A DNA stretch of 64,000 nucleotides, taken from NCBI GenBank assembly GCA_015055975.1, contig SVHF01000001.1, positions 134,752 through 198,751 of the forward strand. Direction: 5' to 3'. The DNA comes from Clostridiales bacterium (GTDB lineage Bacteria; Bacillota; Clostridia; Christensenellales; UBA3700). Shown here in pieces: positions 36,570 through 48,305 of this stretch (positions are counted from its first letter, which is position 1; the number at the start of each line of letters is the position of its first letter). Below the pieces are notes generated by a model. It was given only the letters and a program-made list of their open reading frames with translations. It made no database searches and had not been told where the DNA came from. The position numbers and the translations under genes are program-made.

Positions 36570-37856
36570 ATGTCGGAGATTCAACCAAGAAATGCTAGAA
36601 TTCTAGTAATGGGCGTAGGCGGCGGTGGCTGCAACGCAGTAAACAGTATGATCGCATCAGGAGTAAACAGCGCAGAATTCGTTGCTGTTAATACAGATGC
36701 ACAAGCTTTAAATATGTCTAAAGCAGACATCAAAATTCCAATCGGAACATCTATAACAAGAGGTTTAGGTGCAGGATCAAGACCAGAAGTTGGTAAGCAA
36801 GCTGCAGATGAATCTCGTAATGAATTGGATAAGGCATTAGATAATGTTGATATGCTATTTGTAACTGCTGGTATGGGCGGCGGTACAGGAACAGGTGCTG
36901 CTCCAGTAATCGCTCAAATCGCAAGAGAAAAGGGCATAGTAACAGTTGGTGTCGTAACAAAGCCATTCGCTTTCGAAGGAAAGATCAGAGGTAAGAATGC
37001 TGAAGAAGGTATTTCAAATCTTAAGAAGGCTTGCGATACAGTAATTGTTATTCCAAATGATAACTTACTAAAAGTATTGGGACCAAAAGCAACAATGTTA
37101 GAAGCATTTAAGCATGCAGACTCAGTTTTAAGAGATGCAATTAAGGGCTTATCTGATTTGATTGCTGTTCCATCTATGATTAACGTTGACTTTGCTGACG
37201 TTAAGACAATTATGAAAGATAAAGGTATGGCTCACTTAGCTGTTGGCGTAGCAGAAGGCCCAGATAAGATTAAGTTAGCTGTTGATAGAGCTATCATGAG
37301 CGACCTATGCAATACAAATATTTCAGGTGCTACAGGTATCTTATTAAATGTAGTTGGTGGCCCATCATTAGGTATGATGGAAGCTATTCAAGCTTCAGAT
37401 CTTGTAAGACAATGCGTAGCTCCAGATGCATTAATCATCTTCGGTTTCGGTATTGAAGAAGATTATGGTGACAAGGTTCAAGTATTACTTGTTGCTACTG
37501 GATTTGAAGAAAATGCACAAATGGGAAGATTCGGTGCTACTAAGTACACAGGTGGTGTACCTCTAGATAACCAAGCATTTAAGTCTAAATATGGTTTACA
37601 ATCAGAACCACAAGTTCAACCAAGACAAGAAATGGTAGCTGATGCTAATCAATATGTTGCTCAACCAAATCAACAAATGCAACAAGCACAACCAGCTCAA
37701 CCACAAATGCAACCAACTCAACCACGTCCTCAATATTCATATGCATCAATATTCGGGACTCAACCACAACCACAACAAGCTCAACCAGCACAACCACAAC
37801 AATCTGGTAAAAAATTACCACCATGGTTTGCTAGATTAAGCAACAGAAACGTTTAA
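36570..37856 (+). CDS. ftsZ: Cell division protein FtsZ with a Q/P-rich C-terminal linker
   Basis: GVGGGGCNAVN, GGGTGTGAAPVIA tubulin signature, NVDFADV. Tail of QPQ repeats ending KKLPPWFARL. Confidence 0.97.
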   Translation: MSEIQPRNARILVMGVGGGGCNAVNSMIASGVNSAEFVAVNTDAQALNMSKADIKIPIGTSITRGLGAGSRPEVGKQAADESRNELDKALDNVDMLFVTAGMGGGTGTGAAPVIAQIAREKGIVTVGVVTKPFAFEGKIRGKNAEEGISNLKKACDTVIVIPNDNLLKVLGPKATMLEAFKHADSVLRDAIKGLSDLIAVPSMINVDFADVKTIMKDKGMAHLAVGVAEGPDKIKLAVDRAIMSDLCNTNISGATGILLNVVGGPSLGMMEAIQASDLVRQCVAPDALIIFGFGIEEDYGDKVQVLLVATGFEENAQMGRFGATKYTGGVPLDNQAFKSKYGLQSEPQVQPRQEMVADANQYVAQPNQQMQQAQPAQPQMQPTQPRPQYSYASIFGTQPQPQQAQPAQPQQSGKKLPPWFARLSNRNV

Positions 37857-37888
37857 TACAAGTTTACAACAACATATATACCCAAAAA

Positions 37889-37930
37889 GGAAGGAAGTGT
37901 CTTTCTAGATGCTTCTTTTCTTTTTTTTTT
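37889..37930 (+). terminator. Rho-independent terminator after ftsZ
   Basis: GGAAGGAAG / CTTCTTTTC 9 bp stem (two G-U pairs) followed by T10. Confidence 0.7.
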
Positions 37931-37946
37931 GCGAAAAAATCCAATA

Positions 37947-37975
37947 TTGACTATAAATATTAATAATATTATAAT
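37947..37975 (+). promoter_or_regulatory. Promoter TTGACT-17-TATAAT for the seven-gene operon
   Basis: TTGACT 37947-37952, 17 nt spacer, TATAAT 37970-37975, 36 nt before ATG 38012. Confidence 0.65.
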
Positions 37976-38011
37976 TTTTATAGTGGCAATATGTATTATT
38001 GACCACAATAT

Positions 38012-38785
38012 ATGGTGGTTATGATAGATAAAAGAACTAAAGTTATCGGATTAAAGGAATTAGAACTTACTAATGACGATTTGTTTGTTAGAAAATCTAT
38101 CACGGGCATTTCAGAAGATTCAAAAGTAATAGTGGATGAAACTCATGTAGCAATATTGTTAAAAGATGGTATTGCGCTTGAAACATTAAGACCTGGTATT
38201 TATCCAATTTATTCAAAAAATACTTTATTTTCTAAATCAACAAAACTAGATACAACAAGACTTGAATTGTTCTTCATTTCGAAAACTGCAAAAGTTAGGA
38301 TTTTATGGGGTACTCCAGCACTTTTTGATATACATGATCCAATTTCTGGTATTGCAGCAAAGATGGGAGCTAGTGGAGAAATCGAAATTAGAATCAAAAA
38401 TCCAAGACAATTCTATATTGAAGTTGTAGGGTCAAATGCAAAGTTTACTGTTGAAGATTTAAAAGAAAGATTAAAGGGTGTAATTTTATCTAGAATTGAG
38501 CCAACAATTTCATCATATATTGAAGTTGATGAAGTACCTTTAGATAGAATCGGAGAAGAAAAACTATCTATTGCAAGATACTTACAACAAGATTTAAAGC
38601 GTGAACTTAGTCTAAATTATGGGCTTGAAGTTAGCAATGTTATAGTTAGCAATGTAAATATTGCGGATAAATACAAAGAAGAAGCAGCTACAAAACTAAG
38701 AGGCGAGATGGCATGTCCTCATTGTGGCGTAAAACTTGTTCCAGGAAGCAAGTTCTGTAATAACTGTGGTATGAAGGTGAGATAA
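38012..38785 (+). CDS. SPFH/Band-7 (COG4260, YdjI-like) protein with a C-terminal zinc ribbon
   Basis: Beta-rich N-terminal half and SPFH-like core (GASGEIEIRIKNPRQF..., LNYGLEVSNVIVSNVNI). C-terminal CPHCGVKLVPGSKFCNNCG. No TM helix. Confidence 0.65.
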   Translation: MVVMIDKRTKVIGLKELELTNDDLFVRKSITGISEDSKVIVDETHVAILLKDGIALETLRPGIYPIYSKNTLFSKSTKLDTTRLELFFISKTAKVRILWGTPALFDIHDPISGIAAKMGASGEIEIRIKNPRQFYIEVVGSNAKFTVEDLKERLKGVILSRIEPTISSYIEVDEVPLDRIGEEKLSIARYLQQDLKRELSLNYGLEVSNVIVSNVNIADKYKEEAATKLRGEMACPHCGVKLVPGSKFCNNCGMKVR

Positions 38786-39129
38786 TGGGTTTATTTTCAA
38801 AGAAAGGAATCAGTATAGATTTATCTAATGCTCATATCGCAAAGGTATTAGAGGTAAGACAAACGCTTGAAGCAAATGCTAATAAATTAAAGGCTATAAT
38901 GTTCCAAGCATCAGATAGCGAGAAAAAGATATTGGCTCAAGCTTATATAGATATCAAATATGCAAATCCATTAGTTGATGAAAAAATCGCACAAATAGAT
39001 GACGAAATATCAAAAACTTTAGATGATTTAAAGTTAAACTATGCTAGACGTGTTAAAAGTGAATTAACTATTGCGAATAAAATTAATAGTTTATTGGAAT
39101 TAATACAACAACGACAAGCGTTGGAGTAG
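38785..39129 (+). CDS. Small (114 aa) coiled-coil protein starting MGLFSKK
   Basis: All-helical heptad-like sequence. Shares the MGL(F/L) N-terminus with the next two genes. ATG overlaps the upstream stop (TAATG). Confidence 0.4.
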   Translation: MGLFSKKGISIDLSNAHIAKVLEVRQTLEANANKLKAIMFQASDSEKKILAQAYIDIKYANPLVDEKIAQIDDEISKTLDDLKLNYARRVKSELTIANKINSLLELIQQRQALE

Positions 39130-39140
39130 TAGGAGGATAA

Positions 39141-39767
39141 ATGGGATTATTATCATTTTTTAGATTTAGAAAACTAAAGAGAGAAGATGTTGTTGAATCA
39201 ATCGTAAAACTTGAAAAGCAACAACAAGAAATCGAAGATGGCATCGTAGACAAAGAGGCTCATATTCAAGAACTTTTAGCAAAAGGTAAGAAAGAAAAGT
39301 CTCAAGAAATACGTTTAATGTATGCTAAACAAATTAATTATCTAAAAGAACAAAAAACTAGAGATGCAAAACGTGGCATGTATTTAACATATAACATCAA
39401 CATGATGAACAAGTTAAAAGATGCTATGGAAGATAAAGAATTCTTTACTACATCTAGCAAGATCCAATTAAACAAGTTGCTTGCTGATCAAAAGGGCTTA
39501 GCTAGATACCTAAATAAGGCATTGAAGGTAAGAATTAAAGAAGAAGATGTATTAACTAATGCAGATGAAACATTCAACGAAGTTGCATCTATGTATGAAG
39601 ATAATGACACAATTTATGGAGCAGGCAAGACAGATGACCAATTATTGGCTATGTTTGAAGAAGGCGATGCTGCAGATGAATTAGAAACAATACAAAATAT
39701 AGATGAAAAGGGCGAAGCTGCCTTATTATCAAAAACATTTGAGGAGACAGACAATGGGACTATTTAA
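39141..39767 (+). CDS. ESCRT-III (Snf7/CHMP4-like) superfamily protein
   Basis: 208 aa. MGLLSFFRFRK N-terminus. Basic helical hairpin (ESIVKLEKQQQEIEDGIV...ELLAKGKKEKSQEIRLMYAKQINYLKEQ) parallels Snf7 alpha1-alpha2. Acidic C-terminal third. Confidence 0.6.
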   Translation: MGLLSFFRFRKLKREDVVESIVKLEKQQQEIEDGIVDKEAHIQELLAKGKKEKSQEIRLMYAKQINYLKEQKTRDAKRGMYLTYNINMMNKLKDAMEDKEFFTTSSKIQLNKLLADQKGLARYLNKALKVRIKEEDVLTNADETFNEVASMYEDNDTIYGAGKTDDQLLAMFEEGDAADELETIQNIDEKGEAALLSKTFEETDNGTI

Positions 39768-40341
39768 GAGCAAAGAAGAAAAACAAATCGAAGCAAAAAT
39801 GAAGGTCAAACAAACAATTAATAAGTTTAACAAGCAAATTTCTAAATTTGAAGAGCAAAAGAAGGTATATCTTGATGCTGCAAAGCGTGCTAAAAGACTT
39901 GGCCTTCCAGATGAAGTTAGATTAGCAATTACTGGATACCTATTGACAACAAATCAACAAAAGAGAGCACAAAAGATGCTTCTAAACTTTGAGATTGCTG
40001 CTCAAATGAAAGATATGGAAGTTATGAATGCTGAATTCTTGAAGAGCTTAGGCGATGTATCTAAGGATATGATAAAGCTTACAAACAATAAGGATTTTGC
40101 AAAAGTTCAAGCTCAATTTGAAAAGGCTATGGCTTTATCTCAAACAAGAGCAGAACAAATGGATATGTATCTTGAGTCTTCTCAAACAGAATTTGCAGCT
40201 CAAACAGGCGATGCAAGTTCAATTTCTGATGACGAAATCGATTCACTTGTTACAGAACTTGCTTCTCAAGACGAAATCAATGAATCTACAATTGATGCTC
40301 AATTAGAAAAGATTCACCAAAAAATGTCTCAAACATCATAA
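39754..40341 (+). CDS. ESCRT-III (CHMP3/Vps24- or Vps2-like) superfamily protein with a MIM-like C-terminus
   Basis: MGLFKSKEEK (compare human CHMP3 MGLFGKTQEK). KFEEQKKVYLDAAKRAKRLG...QQKRAQKMLLNF...MKDM...LGDVSKDM follows the CHMP helix pattern. Acidic tail ends IDAQLEKIHQKM. GAGGAG RBS. Starts 14 nt inside the previous gene. Confidence 0.65.
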   Translation: MGLFKSKEEKQIEAKMKVKQTINKFNKQISKFEEQKKVYLDAAKRAKRLGLPDEVRLAITGYLLTTNQQKRAQKMLLNFEIAAQMKDMEVMNAEFLKSLGDVSKDMIKLTNNKDFAKVQAQFEKAMALSQTRAEQMDMYLESSQTEFAAQTGDASSISDDEIDSLVTELASQDEINESTIDAQLEKIHQKMSQTS

Positions 40342-40348
40342 GAGGATT

Positions 40349-41785
40349 ATGGAAGATATAACAATTTTAAGAGATAAATATGACATTCTTTTAAAGAAAG
40401 CCGAAACAGCTGATGCTATGGGCAATTATTCTATTGCGTATAGAAATTATATGTTAGCTGCAGAAACTATGCTTAAAATTGCAAAAACATCTACGCCAGA
40501 ACTAAAGAAAGTTCAAATTAAGCGTGCAAATGATTTAGTTGCAAGAGCAGAACTTCTAGGCAATCCACCACAAACTCCAAAAAGATCTGCATCTCAACCT
40601 CAAGCTAAAGGTCAAGAAACTCAAAGAAATGAGGAAGAAGATACAGGAAAAGAGTGGGTAGGAGCTGAGATTCCAAATATCAAGTTCAAAGATGTAGCAG
40701 GATTGGATGAAGTTAAAAAGACTGTCATGACTAGAATGATAAATCCAGTTTTGTATCCAGATAAGTATGCAAAATATGGTAAAAAGGTAGGCGGTGGCGT
40801 TTTACTATATGGGCCTCCAGGAACAGGTAAGACATTTATCGCAAAAGCAATCGCCGGTGAAGTAGGCGCAACATTCTATGCAATTAAAGGCTCAGATATT
40901 ATGAGCAAATATGTAGGCGAATCAGAAAAGAACATTTCTTCTTTATTTGAAGCTGCTAAAGAACAAAAGTTATCTATCATCTTTATTGATGAAATGGATT
41001 CATTATTTGGAGAAAGAGGAAAAGATACACATAACGATAAGCGTGTTAATGAATTCCTACAACAAATCGATGGATTTGCTTCAAAGACGGATAACTTATT
41101 AATCTTGGGTGCTACAAATAGGCCATGGGATGTAGATTCAGCTGCAGTTAGATCTGGAAGATTTTCAGAAAAGATCTATGTTCCACTTCCTGATGAAAAG
41201 GCAAGAGAGTTTATGTTCAAGCATAACCTTGAAAATGTGCCACTAGGAAACGATGTAGATTTTGATAAATTAGTAGGCTTAACAGATGGCTATTCTGGTG
41301 CAGATATTGCCGAAATTTGCGATAGAGCAAAAGAAGATCCACTAAACATCTATATTAAAACAGATGTTGAAGAACCAGTATCTATGAAATACATAGAAGC
41401 TGCAATAAAGAAAGTAAAACCAACAGTTAGCAAGCTAGAAATCAGAAGATTTGAAGAATATGCAGGCATTAATAGAGATGAGGAAAAACCACAAGCTCCA
41501 ACTAAAGAGAAATGTGATGTTAAATTTGCAAGTACTCAAATTCAACTTTTACCAAATCAAAAGCCAGTATTAGAATTCACGCTATCTCGCGATTTTGATA
41601 AGGTGTATTTAGCTATTGATGGTTCTAACTATATTTGTAATAAAAAATTAGCATCATGGGAAAGCGAGCCTCTTAATATCAAAGATGCTGGCACTTATGA
41701 TGTAGAAATCACGTCGAATAACTTTAAAGCCGTAGGGAGAATTTCATTTATTAAAGGACTAGAAGAAGACGATCTAGGCCTATAA
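40349..41785 (+). CDS. Vps4/CdvC-like AAA ATPase: N-terminal MIT domain, one AAA cassette, extra C-terminal beta-rich domain
   Basis: MIT: KAETADAMGNYSIAYRNYMLAAETMLKIAK...IKRANDLVARAELL (compare Vps4 KAGNYEEAL..Y..A......K...I..K...YLDRAEKL). Walker A GPPGTGKT, Walker B IIFIDEMD, SRH GATNRPWDVDSAAVRSGRF. Confidence 0.8.
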   Translation: MEDITILRDKYDILLKKAETADAMGNYSIAYRNYMLAAETMLKIAKTSTPELKKVQIKRANDLVARAELLGNPPQTPKRSASQPQAKGQETQRNEEEDTGKEWVGAEIPNIKFKDVAGLDEVKKTVMTRMINPVLYPDKYAKYGKKVGGGVLLYGPPGTGKTFIAKAIAGEVGATFYAIKGSDIMSKYVGESEKNISSLFEAAKEQKLSIIFIDEMDSLFGERGKDTHNDKRVNEFLQQIDGFASKTDNLLILGATNRPWDVDSAAVRSGRFSEKIYVPLPDEKAREFMFKHNLENVPLGNDVDFDKLVGLTDGYSGADIAEICDRAKEDPLNIYIKTDVEEPVSMKYIEAAIKKVKPTVSKLEIRRFEEYAGINRDEEKPQAPTKEKCDVKFASTQIQLLPNQKPVLEFTLSRDFDKVYLAIDGSNYICNKKLASWESEPLNIKDAGTYDVEITSNNFKAVGRISFIKGLEEDDLGL

Positions 41786-41793
41786 GGTGAGTT

Positions 41794-43233
41794 ATGGCAG
41801 AAGTAGTAGCAAAATTAAAAGAATCATTTGATGGGATGATTGTTAAAAAGTCATCTTTGCAAGGTGTATTTTCATCATTGAATTTACCTGCGTTTATTAG
41901 AGATTGGTTCTTAAAAAGGTACGCAGATAAAGATGGTAGCGTTAATGTTAATTTTGTACTTGAAAAGATTAAAGACGTAATGCCAAGAAAGGATGAATGG
42001 AATTCTTATCTTGATAGACTCCTAAATGGAGAAAGGGTAAAGTTTCTAGCAAAGATTATTATTGATATCGATATAAAGACTGAAATAATAACTTTTGCGC
42101 TTCCAGATTTTGGCGTTTCATTTAAACAAACACACATTCCAAAATCTGTTTGGGATAAGCACAAAAAAGAATTGCTTGTAACAGACGGCGAGTTTTGGGG
42201 CATTTTGGATCTTGAATATAAGCAAATTCAAAATGGTAAAAAGCAAGAAGGAAAGATATCTTTAGTAGATTTTAAAGACTTTAGGCCATACAAGGTTGAT
42301 TTGGGATTCTTTAAAGAAGCAAGAAAGAACTTTGAAATTGACGAATGGATTGATGTTCTTCTTGGCGCAATTGATTACAACGCAAATGGATTTAAAGATG
42401 AAAATCAAAAAATAACAATGCTTACAAGATTGTTGCCATTTGTAGAAGAAAGATTGAATTTGATGGAACTTGCGCCAAAGGGAACAGGAAAGAGCTATAT
42501 CTTTTCTCAAATATCTAAAAAAGGATGGCTAGTTTCTGGTGGCGTTATGACTAGAGCCAAGATGTTCTATGATATGAATAAACATCAAGATGGCTTAGTA
42601 TCTTTTTATGATTATGTAGCGCTAGATGAAATATCTACAATTAAGTTCCCAGATATCGATGAGATGCGTGGAGCTATGAAAGGATATTTAGAAGCTGGAA
42701 CATATAACGTTGGAAATAAAGCAGGTTCTGGAAAAGCAGGTGTTGTTTTGCTAGGTAATATCCGTGAAGAGAAGATGGATGTTAACAACAACATGCTAGA
42801 AGAATTGCCACCACTTTTTGAAGATTCTGCATTAATTGATAGATTCCATGGATTTATCAAAGGCTGGGATGTTCCAAGAATGAACGAAGACATGAAAGTT
42901 AACGATTGGGCATTAAATACAGAATATTTCTCTGAGATAATGCATGCATTAAGAGAAGATGTTATAGAAAAAGCAATCGTTGATGAATTGGTCGAAGTTC
43001 CAAAGGATGCAGATACAAGAGACACAAAAGCAATTAAGAGAATTGCAACAGCATATGTAAAACTATTCTTCCCACACTGGACAAGTGTAGATGATGTAAA
43101 TAAGGAAGAATTTAAAAAATACTGTCTAGATAGAGCAGTAGAAATGAGAAAAATAATTAAAACTCAATTAGGAATCATGGATAGCGAATATAAAAAGCAT
43201 CCAGTTCAAGAGTTTAAGATAAAGGGAGAGTAA
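41794..43233 (+). CDS. BrxL-type (TIGR02688/PF13337-like) AAA+ ATPase lacking the Lon-protease domain
   Basis: Blocks EWIDVLLGAI, RLLPFVEERLNLMELAPKGTGKSYIF, LVSGGVMTRAKMFYDM, YDYVALDEIS and IDRFHGFIKGWDVPRM match BrxL as I recall it. 479 aa, ending before where the Lon domain would begin. Confidence 0.8.
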   Translation: MAEVVAKLKESFDGMIVKKSSLQGVFSSLNLPAFIRDWFLKRYADKDGSVNVNFVLEKIKDVMPRKDEWNSYLDRLLNGERVKFLAKIIIDIDIKTEIITFALPDFGVSFKQTHIPKSVWDKHKKELLVTDGEFWGILDLEYKQIQNGKKQEGKISLVDFKDFRPYKVDLGFFKEARKNFEIDEWIDVLLGAIDYNANGFKDENQKITMLTRLLPFVEERLNLMELAPKGTGKSYIFSQISKKGWLVSGGVMTRAKMFYDMNKHQDGLVSFYDYVALDEISTIKFPDIDEMRGAMKGYLEAGTYNVGNKAGSGKAGVVLLGNIREEKMDVNNNMLEELPPLFEDSALIDRFHGFIKGWDVPRMNEDMKVNDWALNTEYFSEIMHALREDVIEKAIVDELVEVPKDADTRDTKAIKRIATAYVKLFFPHWTSVDDVNKEEFKKYCLDRAVEMRKIIKTQLGIMDSEYKKHPVQEFKIKGE

Positions 43234-45377
43234 TGAAGTTAACAGCGTTTCAATGCCCAATATGTATGAGTACGCATTTTAGAAAAGAGCAAGATGCTTA
43301 TGTTTGCGAATCATGCGGTAATACTTATACAGAAAAACAAGCAGATAGCCAAATGTTTATCGATCTTAGAATCGCAAATAGACATAGACAATTTGCTGAG
43401 TTTTCTAAAGCAAAAGAAATATATACAGAAATCATCGCAAAATACAAAGATGAAGAAGATGTTTCTTCTGCTTATTGGGGTTTATTGCTATGCGATCAAT
43501 CAGTAATGCTTGAAGTTGACAATCAAGGCCAACTATTCCCATCGTTTTATAGAGTTAAATCTATGCCAATTGAAGAAACTGATGCTTATAAAAAGTTGAT
43601 GAAATACGTCAAAAAGCATGCTGAAGAAAAGTTGGACGATTATCAAGAGAGAATAAATATCATCGAATCAGCTAGAGATAAGGCCAATGTTATAGCAAAT
43701 TCTTCAAAACCATATGATGTATTCATTTGTTTTAAGAAAACTCAACTTGATTCAGATATGGTAACTCCAGATTATGATGTAGCAAATGAAATCTATAATG
43801 AGCTATCTACAAAATATAAAGTATTCTATTCTGAAAAGTCTTTAAGAAATATTAGAGTTAGAGATTTTGAGCCAAATATCTATTATGGACTTTATACTGC
43901 AAAAGTAATGCTTATCATTTGCTCAAAGCGTGAATTTTTGGAATCTCATTGGATGAAAAATGAGTGGAAGAGATTCATGGAATTAAATAAATCTAGAGAT
44001 CAAGATTATAAGAGCATTATTCCTATCTTTATAGACAACTTTACTGAAGAAGATTTGCCAGATGAACTTGCACATAAGCAAGCTCTAAAATATGGTATAT
44101 CTTTAATTTCAGATATCGATAAAACTCTACAAAAGATTATTAACCCAATCGATAAAGATGAAGAGCAACAAAAGCAAATTGAAATGCTTATGGCTAATCA
44201 AAAGAAAATCTTAGAGGAGTGGTCAAAGCGTGAAAGCCAAACAATTGAGTTTAGCCAAGAGCAAGGAAAACCAAGATTGACTCCACAAGAAGAAAAAATT
44301 AGATCAATTTTAAAGCTAGCAAAAGTTAACATCGAAGATTTGGGTAATTTCGACGAAGCAGAAGGACAAGTTAGAAAAGCACAAGAAATTGATGCTGAAA
44401 ATTATGTAACTTGGTTCTACAAATTGATGATAGATTTCAAGGCTCAATCAATTGATGAGCTTATTATGCATGATAACTTCAGAGATAGCGTAAATTATAG
44501 ACTATTTGTTAAATATGCAAATAAAGCAGGAAAAGGCGATGATGTTCAAAAGCTTGAAGGAGCTAGAGAAGATTTCTTAAGAGCCTCAGCTCAAAAAGTA
44601 AATGATTTATTGCAAGCTTTAAAAGATAATCCAAATCCACTTGAAGAAGATGTCGGAAAGATAAAACTAGTTTACGAATCACTTCCTAAAGAAGCTCAAC
44701 AATATGTCGTTGATTTGAAAGAAACAATTTTAAACGCAAGAAAACAAATGCGTGAAAACAAAATTGGCAACTTTAAAACAAGACTAACTATGGTTAGCAA
44801 TAAAGAGCATCCAAATTACGACGATATTTTGAAGATTGAGGAAGAATATGAGAATTTGTCCGAAGATGAGCGAGATTTGGCTGGAGATGGCTATAAACAA
44901 GTCATAACGGATGCATCTAATAAGATGAAGGATGCAAAAGTTCAAAAAGTTCAACAAGCTTTGATAACAATTGATAATCAAGAGAATCCTTCTCGTGATG
45001 ATTTGATTCATATAGAGAAGATGTATAACGAATTAGAAGACAAGTCTAAAGCTTCTGTTCATGACTATAAAGAGATAATGCTAAGAGCATACGATAAAAA
45101 GTATATTAACGATGCTAAATTGTTATCTAAATACTTAACAAAATTGCCAACAGAAAAAGTTCCAAATAGAGATATCTATACGAAACTTGAAAATAGATAT
45201 AAAGCACTTCCAAAGAAATACAGATTAATGGTAGAGCATATTGAATATTTGGACGATTATTACGATAAGTTAATAGCATCTGAAGGCGGAAAAGTAACAA
45301 CTGTTGAAAAACAACAAGAAAATATAAAGACAACAAAGGGAGAGCCAGCGAAAAAGAAAAAACACTGGTTGTGGTAG
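43233..45377 (+). CDS. Zinc-ribbon / TIR-domain / TPR-like and four-repeat helical protein
   Basis: CPICMS...CESCG ribbon (residues 8-29). TIR core from YDVFICF (residue 161) to SHWMKNEWKRF with candidate catalytic Glu244 (43962-43964). Four 58-60 aa repeats at residues 466-680. Confidence 0.8.
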   Translation: MKLTAFQCPICMSTHFRKEQDAYVCESCGNTYTEKQADSQMFIDLRIANRHRQFAEFSKAKEIYTEIIAKYKDEEDVSSAYWGLLLCDQSVMLEVDNQGQLFPSFYRVKSMPIEETDAYKKLMKYVKKHAEEKLDDYQERINIIESARDKANVIANSSKPYDVFICFKKTQLDSDMVTPDYDVANEIYNELSTKYKVFYSEKSLRNIRVRDFEPNIYYGLYTAKVMLIICSKREFLESHWMKNEWKRFMELNKSRDQDYKSIIPIFIDNFTEEDLPDELAHKQALKYGISLISDIDKTLQKIINPIDKDEEQQKQIEMLMANQKKILEEWSKRESQTIEFSQEQGKPRLTPQEEKIRSILKLAKVNIEDLGNFDEAEGQVRKAQEIDAENYVTWFYKLMIDFKAQSIDELIMHDNFRDSVNYRLFVKYANKAGKGDDVQKLEGAREDFLRASAQKVNDLLQALKDNPNPLEEDVGKIKLVYESLPKEAQQYVVDLKETILNARKQMRENKIGNFKTRLTMVSNKEHPNYDDILKIEEEYENLSEDERDLAGDGYKQVITDASNKMKDAKVQKVQQALITIDNQENPSRDDLIHIEKMYNELEDKSKASVHDYKEIMLRAYDKKYINDAKLLSKYLTKLPTEKVPNRDIYTKLENRYKALPKKYRLMVEHIEYLDDYYDKLIASEGGKVTTVEKQQENIKTTKGEPAKKKKHWLW

Positions 45378-45379
45378 AT

Positions 45380-45838
45380 ATGAAGTGTATATTTTGTGGA
45401 TCAATTGAAGATAAGGTTATTGATAGTAGATTAAATGAAGATGGTACATCAATAAGACGTAGACGTGAATGCTGTTCATGTGGCAGACGTTTTACAACTT
45501 ATGAAACAATTGAATTAACTCCAATCATGGTAGTTAAGAAAAACGGAGAAAGACAAGAATATTCAAGAAACAAATTAAAACAAGGTATTGTTAATGCTTG
45601 CGCAAAGCGTCCTGTTTCTATGGAAACTATAGATAAGCTAGTTGCTGAAGTAGAAAAGAAGATAAATAATTCTTTGGAACAAGAAATCAAATCATCTGTA
45701 ATTGGTGAATATGTAATGGAAGGTTTAAAGGATATAGACGATGTTGCATATATTAGATTTGCGGCTGTATATAGAGAATTTAAAGATATTAATAGCTGGT
45801 TAAGCGAAATTAAAGACCTTGTAAAAGAGAAGAAATAA
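45380..45838 (+). CDS. nrdR: Transcriptional repressor NrdR
   Basis: MKCIFCG...CCSCGRRFTTYE zinc ribbon plus ATP-cone. ATG lies 2 nt after the TIR gene stop. Confidence 0.95.
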   Translation: MKCIFCGSIEDKVIDSRLNEDGTSIRRRRECCSCGRRFTTYETIELTPIMVVKKNGERQEYSRNKLKQGIVNACAKRPVSMETIDKLVAEVEKKINNSLEQEIKSSVIGEYVMEGLKDIDDVAYIRFAAVYREFKDINSWLSEIKDLVKEKK

Positions 45839-46836
45839 TGAAAAAAAGATTGGTTCTAATTTTATCAATATTGCTTTTGTCAATATCTTTGATATTGCCT
45901 CTTGTTTCATGCAAGAAAAATACTGATGTAGAACCAGAGAAAAAAGAAGTTATTCCATATACATTTGTAGATGGATCTTCTATATATATAAAAATGGGAA
46001 CTTATCCTCAAACTATAGCATCAGTTTCTGCTGATACGATTAAAGCAAATGGAACATATGATGAACAAACTGGATATTATACATATGAGGGAAGTTTATA
46101 TAAATTAGTTATTGCGCACCCATGCACGCAAGAGATGAGCGCTGTATTTTCAGATGGTCAAAGTGTTGTAGAAGGAAAAGAGTATGCATTTAAAGTTGAA
46201 GATATAATTTGGAAACTTATAAATAAACAACTTGAAGAAGAAGACTATTTTGCATATTCAAATAAAGTATTAGATACGGCAATCTACCAACAACAAGCAA
46301 AAATTGGAAAAGCATCAAATAATGTTTATTATCTATACGATAGTAATAATAGATTGCAAATAGAAGAAGAAATATATGCAAACAACTGGGAATATTCAGT
46401 ACTAAGATCTGCGCTTGCTCAATTCTATAACATAGCATTCAATGAAGATAATAAAACTGCAATAAAACAAGTAGATAATGTTAATTCATCTCAAGATAGT
46501 GGAGGGGATTATTTCCCATCACATCAAAACAATACAAAAGACTATGTCTTTTGCTTATCAAAAGCGCAAGCTTCAAATTCTCGTTATGGATTTACCGATG
46601 AAGATAAGGAAAGAAGATTGAGAGAAGTTACTGATTATGCGATTGCAAAGGGAGCTTTTTATATAGAAACAACAGATGGAGCAAAGTTCGGTTGGATTTG
46701 GACAAGAACTGCTGCTCAAACATCTAATTCTGTGTATAAAATTACTACAACAGGTGATATAACTGCATCTTTTATCAATAATGATGACGATTTAAAGATT
46801 GGTTATGTGCCTGCAATGCGTATAACTAAAATCTAA
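45838..46836 (+). CDS. Lipoprotein (DUF6273-like, G-x-YPQT motif)
   Basis: Signal peptide with lipobox LPLVSC. IKMGTYPQT motif shared with the 52761-53588 protein. Confidence 0.55.
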   Translation: MKKRLVLILSILLLSISLILPLVSCKKNTDVEPEKKEVIPYTFVDGSSIYIKMGTYPQTIASVSADTIKANGTYDEQTGYYTYEGSLYKLVIAHPCTQEMSAVFSDGQSVVEGKEYAFKVEDIIWKLINKQLEEEDYFAYSNKVLDTAIYQQQAKIGKASNNVYYLYDSNNRLQIEEEIYANNWEYSVLRSALAQFYNIAFNEDNKTAIKQVDNVNSSQDSGGDYFPSHQNNTKDYVFCLSKAQASNSRYGFTDEDKERRLREVTDYAIAKGAFYIETTDGAKFGWIWTRTAAQTSNSVYKITTTGDITASFINNDDDLKIGYVPAMRITKI

Positions 46837-46839
46837 GAT

Positions 46840-46869
46840 TTGACATATTTATTTATACAATGATATATT
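46840..46869 (+). promoter_or_regulatory. Candidate rnpB promoter
   Basis: TTGACA 46840-46845, then an extended -10-like TGATATATT at 46861-46869. Confidence 0.45.
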
Positions 46870-46876
46870 TACTTAG

Positions 46877-47199
46877 CAAGATGGCCAGATGATCGCAGGC
46901 CCGCAAGGGAATGAGGAAAGTCCGAGCACCACAAGGCAGAGTGCTGGTTAACGACCAGTCAAGGTGACTTGAAGGAAAGTGCAACAGAAAATAACCGCCA
47001 ACTTAGTTGGTAAGGATGAAAAGGCGAGGTAAGAGCTCACCGTCCTTAAGGTGACTTAGGGAGCCGTGTAAACCCCACTTGGTGCAAGAGAAAGCGACAA
47101 TTAGTAGCCTGCTAGTCGCGAAATCGCTTGAGCGTATTGGCAACAATGCGCCTAGACAGATGATCATCCAATACAGAACTCGGCTTATAGACCATCTTG
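46877..47199 (+). ncRNA. rnpB: RNase P RNA (compact, about 323 nt)
   Basis: GAGGAAAGTCCG at 46913-46924, ACAGAACTCGGCTTAT at 47173-47188, P1 pairing CAAGATGG.../...CCATCTTG, followed by a T run. Confidence 0.9.
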
Positions 47200-47265
47200 T
47201 TTTTTTATGCAATTATGCGTGAATATGCGTATAAATATACATTTAAGATTTTTACTAAACAATTG

Positions 47266-47294
47266 TTGACTATAATATATAATCTTTATAAAAT
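47266..47294 (+). promoter_or_regulatory. arg operon promoter TTGACT-17-TAAAAT
   Basis: TTGACT 47266-47271, TAAAAT 47289-47294. Confidence 0.6.
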
Positions 47295-47369
47295 GGGCTC
47301 AAGATAAGTATTTGAGTTCATATTTTTTAATTTGAATATTTAAGTATTTATGCAAAACGAAAAAGGACG

Positions 47370-48305
47370 ATGAAAATGACTAAAGTATTTGTAGATGGAT
47401 CTTCTGGAACAACAGGTTTAAAAATAGTTGATAGACTATCTAAAAGAAGTGATATTGAGTTAATCAAGTTATCTGATGAATTAAGAAAAGACGTAAATGC
47501 TAAAAAAGACGCCATAAATTCAGCTGATGTTGTATTTTTATGCTTGCCAGATGCTGCAGCTATTGAATCAGTATCTTTAGTTGAGAATAAGAACGTTTGC
47601 GTTATAGATACATCAACAGCTCATAGAACAAATGATAAATTTGCTTATGGCTTTGCTGAAGTAAACGATTTGCGTTCAAAGATTCAATCATCAAACCTTA
47701 TTGCAAATCCTGGATGTCATGCAAGTGGATTTATATCATTAGTTGCTCCACTTGTTAGAGCAGGACTTATAAATACAGATATTAAATTATCTTGTTTTTC
47801 TTTAACTGGTTATACTGGTGGCGGAAAGAAGATGATAGCTCAATATGAAGAAGGTTGCAATGTAGATTTAGAGGCACCTCGTCAATATGGACTTACTCAA
47901 ATGCATAAACATCTTCCAGAAATGACAAAGGTTTGCGGTATAGATAATGCGCCAATCTTCTGTCCAATTGTTGCTCCATTTGCACAAGGCATGGAAGTAA
48001 CAGTTCCTCTATTTAAGAGCGATTTAAGAGGTAATATCAAAGATATTATTGAATTATATAAGAGCGTTTATACAACAAAACTTGTACATTTTGATGAAGC
48101 AAATGAAGAAGGATTCTTAACTTCAAACAAATATGCAAATTATGATGATATGGGCGTATCTGTTTATGGAAACGATGATAGAATAATACTTGTTTCTAGA
48201 TTTGATAATCTAGGAAAGGGCGCTTCAGGCGCAGCTATACAAAATATGAATATACATTTAGGACTAAAAGAAGAAGAGTCACTAAATATTAAAGGAGCTA
48301 ACTAA
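47370..48305 (+). CDS. argC: N-acetyl-gamma-glutamyl-phosphate reductase (short form)
   Basis: VDGSSGTTG NAD loop, catalytic IANPGCHASG, about 310 aa. Confidence 0.9.
   Translation: MKMTKVFVDGSSGTTGLKIVDRLSKRSDIELIKLSDELRKDVNAKKDAINSADVVFLCLPDAAAIESVSLVENKNVCVIDTSTAHRTNDKFAYGFAEVNDLRSKIQSSNLIANPGCHASGFISLVAPLVRAGLINTDIKLSCFSLTGYTGGGKKMIAQYEEGCNVDLEAPRQYGLTQMHKHLPEMTKVCGIDNAPIFCPIVAPFAQGMEVTVPLFKSDLRGNIKDIIELYKSVYTTKLVHFDEANEEGFLTSNKYANYDDMGVSVYGNDDRIILVSRFDNLGKGASGAAIQNMNIHLGLKEEESLNIKGAN

What the first reader, a model, noticed from the sequence alone, without database searches (positions are those of the whole stretch)
41794..45377. Lon-less BrxL-type ATPase translationally coupled to a zinc-ribbon/TIR protein: a candidate two-gene defence core
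Seen in the sequence:
- The 479 aa product shares successive blocks with BREX BrxL (EWIDVLL, ELAPKGTGKSYIF, LVSGG..T.A.MFY.M, ALDEIS, DRFHGFIKGWDVPRM), by comparison with BrxL as I recall it. It stops before the Lon-like protease domain.
- Its stop overlaps the ATG of a 714 aa protein at 43233. That protein has an N-terminal CxxC..CxxC ribbon and a TIR core (43713-44102) containing the SHWMKNEW block. The Glu at 43962-43964 sits where NADase TIRs carry their catalytic glutamate.

Established knowledge:
- BrxL is an MCM-like DNA-binding AAA+ protein in type I BREX.
- A shorter stand-alone family (TIGR02688) exists with no assigned function.
- Bacterial TIR proteins act as NAD+-consuming or signal-producing defence components (Thoeris, TIR-STING, AVAST and others).

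Inference: the BrxL-like protein is a nucleic-acid sensor or motor and the TIR protein is an effector or signal generator. The pair could function alone, or could feed the upstream membrane module.
Basis: partly seen in the sequence, partly recalled or inferred. Interest (0 to 1): 0.75.

Follow-up and report, generated by a model that had tools for sequence, protein, structure and literature searches.

The report
BrxL and TIR on bacterial ESCRT-like operon
The short BrxL ATPase and the TIR protein are real, but they are the last two genes of a conserved seven-gene operon built around ESCRT-III-like proteins and a Vps4-like ATPase, a pairing that recent reviews say bacteria do not have.

Summary
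ORF 41794-43233 is a Lon-less BrxL and ORF 43233-45377 is a zinc-ribbon/TIR protein. The TIR fold matches NADase-type TIRs and Glu244 is invariant in 55 homologues.

- The short BrxL family (TIGR02688) is not an orphan. It is the BrxL of type 4 BREX: 68 of its 80 best genomic relatives sit in brxP-brxC-pglZ-brxL operons.
- The pair is not a two-gene core. In every non-BREX relative sampled, BrxL-short lies in one operon with an SPFH/YdjI-like zinc-ribbon protein, three small coiled-coil proteins and a Vps4-like AAA+ ATPase (MIT, AAA and Vps4_C domains). One small protein matches Pfam Snf7; a second resembles ESCRT-III in a predicted structure.
- That core also occurs with TIR but no BrxL, with BrxL but no TIR, and with a degenerate TIR. 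BrxL and TIR are therefore accessory subunits.

The operon sits at a fixed core-genome position (ftsZ to nrdR) in Christensenellales-like Clostridia. It is absent from viral contigs.

I found no published description. My best reading is a membrane-associated conflict or stress system. A housekeeping membrane-remodelling role is a serious rival.

The parts
37884..37925 (+). Terminator-like stem-loop with a T run after ftsZ; the upstream boundary of the operon
   Evidence: 19-pair stem followed by a T tract. ftsZ ends at 37856.
37947..37975 (+). Sigma-70-like promoter (TTGACT, 17 nt, TATAAT) ahead of the first gene
   Evidence: 11 of 12 matches, tied with one other site as the best in 37700-47400. 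A consensus match only.
38012..38785 (+). SPFH/Band-7 protein of the YdjI type with a C-terminal zinc ribbon (257 aa); the likely membrane-proximal scaffold
   Evidence: PF13421 Band_7_1, E 4e-19, and PF13240 zinc ribbon, E 5.5e-7. Present in nearly all related loci.
38785..39129 (+). Small coiled-coil protein (114 aa) starting MGLFSKK; fold not established
   Evidence: No Pfam, NCBIfam or PADLOC match. Conserved in this position in related loci.
39141..39767 (+). ESCRT-III-like protein (208 aa) starting MGLLSFF, with a conserved IYG..DDxLLAMFE motif and an acidic tail
   Evidence: AlphaFold2 with 45 homologues: pLDDT 75.6, short N-terminal helix followed by a long helical hairpin. Top Foldseek PDB matches are CHMP1B, Asgard ESCRT-IIIB, Vipp1, CHMP2A-CHMP3, Shrub and PspA, but E is only 0.1-0.3. 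No sequence-level match to Snf7.
39754..40341 (+). Snf7/ESCRT-III-family protein (195 aa) starting MGLFKSK, with a C-terminal helix (IDAQLEKIHQKM) resembling a MIM1 motif. The conserved start is 39754, not the 39703 given by the ORF list
   Evidence: PF03357 Snf7 matched by 6 of 8 family members, best E 1.7e-6. The window copy matches residues 13-178 to profile positions 1-158 of 171, E 0.87. Start and C-terminal motif are conserved. The MIM1 resemblance is from my own knowledge.
40349..41785 (+). Vps4-like AAA+ ATPase (478 aa): MIT domain, one classical AAA domain, Vps4_C, and a C-terminal beta-rich domain
   Evidence: PF00004 E 2e-42; PF04212 MIT E 2.8e-5; PF09336 Vps4_C E 2.2e-5. NCBIfam CdvC NF041006, 215 bits over residues 17-371, below its cut-off of 650. 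The N-terminal 110 aa match only the VPS4B MIT domain in the PDB, E 0.025. The AAA core is closest to p97/Cdc48 D2.
41794..43233 (+). Short (Lon-less) BrxL: BrxL_N DNA-binding region plus an MCM-like AAA+ domain. Walker A Lys233 is at 42490-42492; Walker B is D278/E279
   Evidence: The motifs are invariant in alignment A1 across both genomic contexts. The ESCRT-linked copies form one clade apart from the BREX type 4 copies.
43233..45377 (+). Zinc-ribbon, helical, TIR and helical-tail protein (714 aa)
43713..44102 (+). TIR domain; catalytic-position Glu244 at 43962-43964
   Evidence: PF13676 at residues 164-287. Glu244, Trp240, Trp245 and Arg247 are invariant in 55 sequences. The fold matches NADase TIRs. 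Aligns with RUN1 WCLDEL.
45351..45374 (+). C-terminal KKKKHWLW tail: a probable peripheral membrane anchor (inference)
   Evidence: KKKK[HR]WLW, or a KKK..W[FL]W variant, is conserved after a variable linker in orthologues P0001-P0020. Paralogues carry true transmembrane helices instead.
45380..46836 (+). Context: nrdR (45380-45838) and a DUF6273 lipoprotein gene (45838-46836). They follow with a 2-nt gap and a 1-nt overlap and with no terminator, so they are probably co-transcribed
   Evidence: TIGR00244 NrdR E 1e-57; PF19789 DUF6273. No terminator-like site between 45377 and 46836 on the + strand. Same order in L004, L007, L010 and L015.

Best explanation
What is shown: the two genes are accessory subunits of a seven-gene operon (38012-45377). 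Its constant core has three kinds of protein:
- an SPFH/YdjI-like zinc-ribbon protein;
- three small coiled-coil proteins, at least one of the Snf7 family and one with an ESCRT-III-like predicted fold;
- a Vps4-like ATPase with MIT, AAA and Vps4_C domains.

The short BrxL was recruited once from the type 4 BREX lineage. The TIR protein belongs to a family of Clostridial proteins with a cytoplasmic zinc ribbon and TIR domain and a membrane-anchored C-terminus.

Proposed mechanism (inferred):
1. The SPFH protein recruits the ESCRT-III-like subunits to the inner face of the membrane, by analogy with YdjI and PspA. Their MGLF N-termini would bind lipid.
2. The Vps4-like ATPase binds their C-terminal MIM-like helices through its MIT domain and remodels or recycles the polymer.
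3. The TIR protein is held at the same membrane by its KKKKHWLW tail. It is clustered on this platform, which switches on NAD+ cleavage at Glu244, acting either as an effector or as a signal generator.
4. The BrxL ring loads on DNA at the membrane (incoming, foreign or trapped DNA) and supplies the nucleic-acid input.

Overall I read it as a membrane-associated infection or stress response (conflict) system.
For: One operon:
- Gaps of 11 nt or less, or overlaps, from 38012 to 45377.
- One promoter-like site upstream and a terminator-like site after ftsZ.

Conserved association with shuffled order:
- Seven-gene order kept at 56-77% TIR identity (L004-L015, L093).
- TIR sits upstream of the SPFH gene in L016, L017, L019, L020 and L062, and between a protease gene and brxL in L021, L023 and L110.

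Identity of the core.

The short BrxL is otherwise a BREX type 4 gene, and the ESCRT-linked copies are monophyletic.

The TIR looks catalytically competent.

Membrane tethering.

Features typical of conflict systems:
- The accessory set is TIR, BrxL and a trypsin-like protease that matches PADLOC retron RT-protease and LmuA models.
- TIR C-termini are highly variable: helical repeats, TPR, LRR_5, and total lengths from 447 to 1590 aa.
- Accessory genes are gained and lost between lineages.
Against: - No experiment exists on any component of this operon.
- The locus behaves like a core-genome operon. It has the same ftsZ...nrdR position across relatives whose FtsZ is only 55-58% identical, and its proteins are about as conserved as FtsZ.
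- Flanks in other lineages are housekeeping genes. No integrases or other defence genes were seen.
- None was found in viral contigs.
- The TIR catalytic Glu is lost in at least three lineages that keep the protein: Ile in L016/L105, Gln in L062, Phe in L094/L112. So the protein also has a role that does not need NADase activity.
- BrxL is present in only 2 of 8 full-length loci retrieved through the Snf7-like gene.
- The ESCRT-III assignment of the 208-aa protein rests on weak Foldseek E-values. The fold of the 114-aa protein is unknown.
- The AAA core is as close to Cdc48 D2 as to Vps4.
Confidence: 0.5

Rival explanations
1. Housekeeping membrane-remodelling machine. The SPFH, ESCRT-III-like and Vps4-like core would perform membrane scission or repair in division, sporulation or vesicle release. 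BrxL would handle chromosomal DNA at the closing membrane. The TIR protein would be a membrane adaptor or scaffold rather than an immune effector.
For: - Fixed position directly after ftsQ-ftsA-ftsZ, or after ftsZ-spoIIGA-sigE-sigG in L010 and L014, and before nrdR.
- Conservation comparable to FtsZ.
- Housekeeping flanks everywhere and no mobile-element genes.
- Loss of the TIR catalytic Glu in three lineages with the protein retained.
- Paralogues of the TIR protein carry cell-wall-binding LysM or SH3 ectodomains.
- ESCRT-III with Vps4 drives division in some archaea (PMC10936438).
Against: - These bacteria keep a full FtsZ divisome.
- TIR with an invariant catalytic Glu, BrxL and a trypsin-like protease is a typical immune toolkit.
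- Accessory genes come and go between lineages, and the operon's genomic position differs between deeper lineages.
- TIR C-termini are hypervariable.
Confidence: 0.3
2. One reading: BrxL-short and TIR form an autonomous two-gene sensor/effector defence module that merely sits next to an unrelated membrane operon.
For: - The two genes are adjacent, with an overlapping stop and start.
- Both are defence-type domains.
- They are also adjacent, in the order TIR then BrxL, in L021, L023 and L110.
Against: - No BrxL+TIR pair was seen without the core among 80 genomic relatives.
- Each occurs without the other but with the core: L109, and L101, L102 and L113.
- In five loci the two genes lie at opposite ends of the cluster.
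- There is no internal terminator, and the only strong promoter-like site lies upstream of the first gene, at 37947.
Confidence: 0.07
3. Decayed BREX: the BrxL gene is a remnant of a type 4 BREX locus that lost brxP, brxC and pglZ, and it has no function in its present place.
For: The protein is 52-61% identical to BrxL proteins of type 4 BREX operons.
Against: - The ORF is intact and all ATPase motifs are invariant.
- It is 77-91% identical among orthologues, which is better conserved than FtsZ.
- The ESCRT-linked copies form one old clade.
- There is no trace of brxP, brxC or pglZ in the window.
Confidence: 0.02

Closest known systems
BrxL of type 4 BREX (TIGR02688; brxP-brxC-pglZ-brxL operons)
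   Same: Same domain layout (BrxL_N plus an MCM-like AAA+ domain, no C-terminal Lon or HKD domain), 52-61% identity and identical ATPase motifs. PMC12839542 describes this layout for type 4 BrxL.
   Different: No BrxP, BrxC or PglZ in the locus. It belongs to a separate clade linked to the SPFH / ESCRT-III-like / Vps4-like cluster.
Archaeal ESCRT systems, especially the Methanobacteriales 'Meth_adaptin' type (Makarova et al. 2024, PMC10936438)
   Same: A Vps4 with an MIT domain, several ESCRT-III paralogues, and an SPFH protein with coiled-coil and zinc-ribbon parts, all in one locus.
   Different: The host is bacterial. No adaptin-appendage, wH or ProX components were identified. It has TIR, BrxL and protease add-ons. 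Common descent or transfer from archaea was not tested.
Bacillus subtilis ydjFGHI (PspA with the SPFH protein YdjI)
   Same: A Band_7_1 SPFH protein with a zinc ribbon, encoded next to ESCRT-III-superfamily proteins in a Firmicute (PMC11237479; PMC10936438).
   Different: The small proteins match Snf7 rather than PspA_IM30. A Vps4-like ATPase is present. There is no YdjG or YdjH.
NADase TIR immune proteins (SARM1/TIR-1, plant RUN1, TIR-STING, SPARTA TIR-APAZ, Thoeris ThsB)
   Same: TIR fold with the S-x-W-x-x-x-E motif and an invariant Glu.
   Different: No ThsA, STING, Argonaute or STAND partner. No PADLOC model matches the protein. It has an N-terminal zinc-ribbon/helical module and a membrane tail, and its partners are ESCRT-like proteins.

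Membership tests
BrxL protein family (PF20442 + PF13337; TIGR02688) | BrxL_N domain followed by the BrxL MCM-like AAA+ domain, scoring above the curated cut-off | tested here: met
   TIGR02688 439.9 bits against a cut-off of 329.3; PF13337 E 1.7e-116; PF20442 E 4e-27.
BrxL protein family (PF20442 + PF13337; TIGR02688) | Intact Walker A and Walker B motifs | tested here: met
   GTGKS at residues 230-234 and LDE at 277-279, invariant across 12 diverse members.
BREX system (type 4) | BrxL encoded together with PglZ, BrxC/PglY and BrxP | tested here: not met
   tblastn of the type 4 partners from L027 against the window gave no hits. The partners are also absent from all ESCRT-linked loci.
BREX system (type 1) | BrxL carries a C-terminal Lon-like (or HKD) domain and is encoded with BrxA, BrxB, BrxC, PglX and PglZ | tested here: not met
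   The long model TIGR02653 is matched only at positions 4-455 of 675. No partner genes are present.
ESCRT system (ESCRT-III + Vps4) | At least one Snf7/ESCRT-III-family protein | tested here: met
   The family of the 195-aa protein matches PF03357 in 6 of 8 members, best E 1.7e-6. The window copy itself is weak, E 0.87, but aligns over the full length of the profile. The 208-aa protein has ESCRT-III proteins as its top structural matches, at weak E-values.
ESCRT system (ESCRT-III + Vps4) | Vps4-type ATPase: N-terminal MIT domain, a single AAA domain and a Vps4_C element | tested here: inconclusive
   The architecture is present: MIT E 2.8e-5 (24.6 bits, below the gathering score of 30), Vps4_C 24.8 bits (above 21.3), and a match to the VPS4B MIT domain. 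However, the CdvC model scores 215 bits against a cut-off of 650, and the AAA core is equally close to Cdc48 D2. No phylogeny with archaeal Vps4 was made.
ESCRT system (ESCRT-III + Vps4) | MIT-MIM interaction, membrane polymerisation and ATP-driven disassembly | not testable with these tools
   The only evidence is a MIM1-like C-terminal helix (ID.ELE.L.KKI consensus) in alignment A2.
NADase-type TIR | TIR fold | tested here: met
   PF13676 E 8e-11. The AlphaFold2 model has pLDDT 88 and Foldseek probability 1.0 to SARM1, RUN1, TIR-STING and SPARTA.
NADase-type TIR | Catalytic Glu in the S-x-W-x-x-x-E motif | tested here: met
   Glu244 is invariant in 55 homologues and aligns with the RUN1 WCLDEL Glu. 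It is lost in some relatives linked to the same core.
NADase-type TIR | NAD+ hydrolase or cyclase activity | not testable with these tools
   Needs an enzyme assay.
Thoeris | ThsB-type TIR encoded with ThsA (SIR2 or Macro with SLOG) | tested here: not met
   No PADLOC model matches the TIR protein, and no ThsA-like neighbour is present.
Psp / YdjI-type system | PspA_IM30-family protein next to a Band_7_1 SPFH protein | tested here: inconclusive
   The Band_7_1 SPFH protein is present. No PspA_IM30 match was obtained for any small protein at E up to 10. PspA and Vipp1 do appear among the weak structural matches.

The most novel reading that the evidence does not exclude
Clostridia of the Christensenellales group carry a genuine ESCRT machine: an SPFH scaffold, several ESCRT-III subunits, and a Vps4 with an MIT domain. 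It may have been acquired from co-resident methanogenic archaea. It has been wired to an NADase TIR protein and a BREX-derived DNA motor. That would make membrane remodelling part of a bacterial immune or cell-death pathway, as ESCRT-III is in animal cells.
Probability: 0.3. Interest if true: 0.9.

Novelty: new variant of a known kind. Interest (0 to 1): 0.8.

Why it matters
[quoted passage not shown] This operon puts a Snf7-family protein, a second ESCRT-III-like protein and a Vps4-like ATPase with an MIT domain side by side in many Clostridial genomes, so that claim can be tested directly.

It also shows a BREX component, the short BrxL, working outside BREX. That separates its function from DNA modification. 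In addition, it links a TIR NADase to membrane-remodelling proteins, a combination not described in bacterial immunity in the papers I could search.

Tried and rejected
- Sequence profiles of the 195-aa and 208-aa families against PDB sequences found no ESCRT-III protein.
- A profile-profile comparison of the two families was not significant (probability 0.7%), so I do not claim they are paralogues.
- Pfam scans of 45 members of the 208-aa family gave no Snf7 or PspA match.
- Scans of viral contigs with both small-protein families found nothing.
- A self-comparison of the TIR protein's C-terminal half found no significant internal repeats, despite repeat-like stretches visible by eye.
- Literature searches gave no description of this cluster: TIGR02688; BrxL/TIR/Vps4; ESCRT with anti-phage; ESCRT with Christensenell-; Vps4/ESCRT-III with Clostridia; TIR/SPFH/anti-phage. 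The library is incomplete.
- I considered and rejected the BREX-remnant idea.
- dN/dS was not attempted because the available orthologues are too diverged.
- I did not test the archaeal-origin idea. The 120 best relatives of the Vps4-like protein that carry names are all Clostridia, which neither supports nor excludes an old transfer.

Full report
**1. The observation**

The two ORFs are as described.

The 479-aa product of 41794-43233:
- It carries BrxL_N (PF20442, E 4e-27) and the BrxL ATPase domain (PF13337, E 1.7e-116).
- It passes the curated cut-off of TIGR02688 (439.9 against 329.3 bits).
- It fits PADLOC's 482-residue BrxL model end to end (680.8 bits).
- Models of the long form are matched only up to about position 455-467 of 675-698, so there is no Lon-like domain.

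The gene junction: the stop codon shares one base with the ATG at 43233 (TAATG), behind a Shine-Dalgarno-like AAAGGGAGAG.

The 714-aa product of 43233-45377:
- It has a CxxC...CxxC ribbon at residues 8-28 and a TIR_2 domain at residues 164-287 (E 8e-11).
- An alignment of 55 homologues shows Glu244 (43962-43964), Trp240, Trp245 and Arg247 invariant.
- phmmer aligns SHWMKNEW with SRWCLDEL of the grapevine RUN1 TIR. That this Glu is RUN1's catalytic residue is from my own knowledge.
- An AlphaFold2 model of residues 1-320 (pLDDT 88.2) matches TIR-1/SARM1, TIR-STING, RUN1 and SPARTA TIR domains with probability 1.0.

**2. The short BrxL is not an orphan**

A scan of one genome per species with an alignment of short BrxLs returned 80 loci. 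Clustering their ORFs gave the following.
- 68 loci have the same operon. Profile scans name it 390-aa protein / BrxP (PAPS reductase) / BrxC / PglZ / BrxL-short / cysteine desulfurase. This is type 4 BREX.
- The window holds none of these partners.

**3. What the pair belongs to**

Upstream on the same strand lie five more genes. The gaps are 11 nt or less, or the genes overlap. There is one strong promoter-like site (37947-37975) and a terminator-like hairpin after ftsZ. The five genes are:
- an SPFH protein of the YdjI type with a zinc ribbon;
- three small coiled-coil proteins of 114, 208 and 195 aa, beginning MGLFSKK, MGLLSFF and MGLFKSK;
- a 478-aa AAA+ ATPase with an MIT domain, one classical AAA domain and a Vps4_C element. 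It aligns along the full length of the archaeal CdvC model, though well below that model's cut-off. Its N-terminal 110 residues match nothing in the PDB except the MIT domain of VPS4B.

Evidence on the small proteins:
- The family of the 195-aa protein matches Pfam Snf7 in 6 of 8 members (best E 1.7e-6). The window copy aligns over almost the whole profile.
- Its C-terminus (consensus ID.ELE.L.KKI) resembles the MIM1 helices that bind MIT domains (my own knowledge).
- The 208-aa protein has no sequence match to ESCRT-III.
- Its AlphaFold2 model, built from 45 homologues (pLDDT 75.6), shows a short N-terminal helix followed by a long helical hairpin.
- The model's best PDB matches are CHMP1B, Asgard ESCRT-IIIB, Vipp1, CHMP2A-CHMP3, Shrub and PspA. 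The E-values are weak (0.1-0.3).
- The 114-aa protein remains unassigned.
- None of the seven proteins has a hydrophobic segment typical of a transmembrane helix.

**4. Comparative evidence that this is one system**

The seven-gene order is kept in relatives whose TIR protein is only 56-77% identical. It always lies between ftsZ (or ftsZ-spoIIGA-sigE-sigG) and nrdR.

In deeper relatives the same genes recur in other orders:
- TIR / SPFH / small proteins / Vps4-like / trypsin-like protease / BrxL in L017, L019 and L020;
- the same order without the protease in L016 and L105;
- SPFH ... Vps4-like / protease / TIR / BrxL in L021, L023 and L110.

Searching metagenomes with the Snf7-like family, which is blind to BrxL and TIR, gave 16 loci. 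Eight of them have full flanks:
- all eight have the SPFH protein, the small proteins and the Vps4-like ATPase;
- two have BrxL;
- four have a TIR protein with the Glu motif;
- four have instead a 1273-aa homologue of the TIR protein (BLASTP 2e-8), in which the motif reads IKNFYDRY, so the Glu is lost.

Sampling through the Vps4-like protein added L109 (BrxL, no TIR) and L113 (TIR, no BrxL).

The catalytic Glu is also replaced in L016/L105 (Ile) and L062 (Gln).

In a neighbour-joining tree (no support values), the ESCRT-linked BrxLs form one clade separate from the BREX type 4 BrxLs.

Hence the SPFH, ESCRT-III-like and Vps4-like genes are the core. The zinc-ribbon/TIR(-like) protein is a near-constant partner. 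BrxL and the protease are optional. No BrxL+TIR pair was seen on its own.

**5. The TIR protein family**

Its N-terminal 300 residues are shared with many Clostridial proteins. In these proteins a transmembrane helix follows the TIR domain, and the C-terminus carries LRR_5, LysM, SH3 or DUF6273 domains. This is a receptor-like topology.

The window protein and its orthologues have no transmembrane helix. They end in a conserved KKKK[HR]WLW tail, which I interpret as a peripheral membrane anchor (inference).

**6. Setting**

- The rest of the window is housekeeping: dcw genes, arg and his biosynthesis, Clp, GroEL.
- Flanks of distant loci are also housekeeping and differ from lineage to lineage.
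- Both small-protein families are absent from viral contigs.
- The 208-aa family has only 93 clusters at 50% identity among 1.84 billion representatives.
- All named relatives of the Vps4-like protein are Clostridia or Christensenellales.

**7. Mechanism**

Shown: operon membership, domain identities, an intact TIR active-site motif, and the accessory status of BrxL and TIR.

Inferred: the SPFH protein recruits the ESCRT-III-like polymer to the membrane. The Vps4-like ATPase remodels it through MIT-MIM contacts. The membrane-tethered TIR protein is clustered there and cleaves NAD+. BrxL supplies DNA recognition or motor activity.

The defence reading rests on three things: the accessory genes are typical immune parts, the TIR C-termini are hypervariable, and the accessory genes turn over between lineages.

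The housekeeping reading rests on the fixed core-genome position, conservation similar to FtsZ, the absence of mobile-element or defence neighbours, and repeated loss of the catalytic Glu.

I put these at about 0.5 and 0.3.

**8. Novelty**

Makarova et al. [quoted passage not shown] They also describe an SPFH protein with coiled-coil and zinc-ribbon parts in the Methanobacteriales type (PMC10936438).

A 2025 review says a Vps4-like ATPase appears absent in bacteria (PMC7619361).

Ravi et al. 2024 note transfers of Vps4-like ATPases to bacteria, but with snf7 displaced. They also note some bacterial PspA or Snf7 associations with AAA+ ATPases of other compositions (PMC11237479).

The BREX survey does not mention ESCRT, Vps4, TIR or SPFH.

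Within the searchable literature, this cluster and the BrxL-TIR-ESCRT link are undescribed. I rate it a new variant of a known kind: an ESCRT-like system, in bacteria, with immune-type add-ons.

Noticed in passing
window 45838-46836; proteins P0025, P0038, P0049, P0060: A DUF6273 lipoprotein gene lies two genes after the TIR gene, with no terminator between, and it is conserved there in orthologous loci. In other Clostridia, DUF6273 is fused to the C-terminus of zinc-ribbon/TIR proteins of the same family. This hints that the lipoprotein is functionally linked to the TIR protein.
   Followed up: partly
proteins P0023, P0027, P0033, P0044, P0054: A family of Clostridial proteins has a cytoplasmic zinc ribbon and TIR domain, then a transmembrane helix, then extracellular LRR_5, LysM or SH3 domains. 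This is a Toll-like-receptor-like topology in bacteria. Most members are not next to the ESCRT-like cluster.
   Followed up: partly
L062:7066-8151: The 208-aa-type protein is fused through a proline-rich linker to the C-terminal beta-rich domain of the Vps4-like ATPase. The AAA core is missing from the locus, and the TIR Glu is replaced by Gln. This looks like a degenerate or rewired version of the system.
   Followed up: no
window 39703-40341: The mechanical ORF starts at 39703, but all orthologues start at the MGLFKSK codon at 39754. From there the gene overlaps the end of the preceding gene by 14 nt.
   Followed up: yes
window 45371-45838: The listed GTG start of nrdR at 45371 overlaps the TIR gene. 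Gene calls for the orthologous loci give a 152-aa NrdR, so the start is the MKCIFCG codon at 45380, 2 nt after the TIR stop.
   Followed up: yes
L002:3018-4453: In one otherwise identical metagenome contig, the Vps4-like gene is split into ORFs of 250 and 190 aa. This is either an assembly error or a disrupted allele.
   Followed up: no
L022-L092 (for example L027:2-12811): Type 4 BREX operons in many phyla carry a conserved 390-aa protein upstream of brxP. In 43 of the 80 loci a DndA/SspA-like cysteine desulfurase lies directly after brxL, which agrees with the 2026 BREX survey.
   Followed up: partly
L106:1621-5573: A distant Vps4-like and Snf7-like gene pair lies next to a 730-aa protein that combines a RuvB-like AAA+ domain with a TnsA-like endonuclease N-terminal domain.
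   Followed up: no
L010:1914-4454 and L014: In one sublineage, spoIIGA, sigE, sigG and a PRC-barrel gene lie between ftsZ and the operon. In the window they are absent from this position.
   Followed up: no
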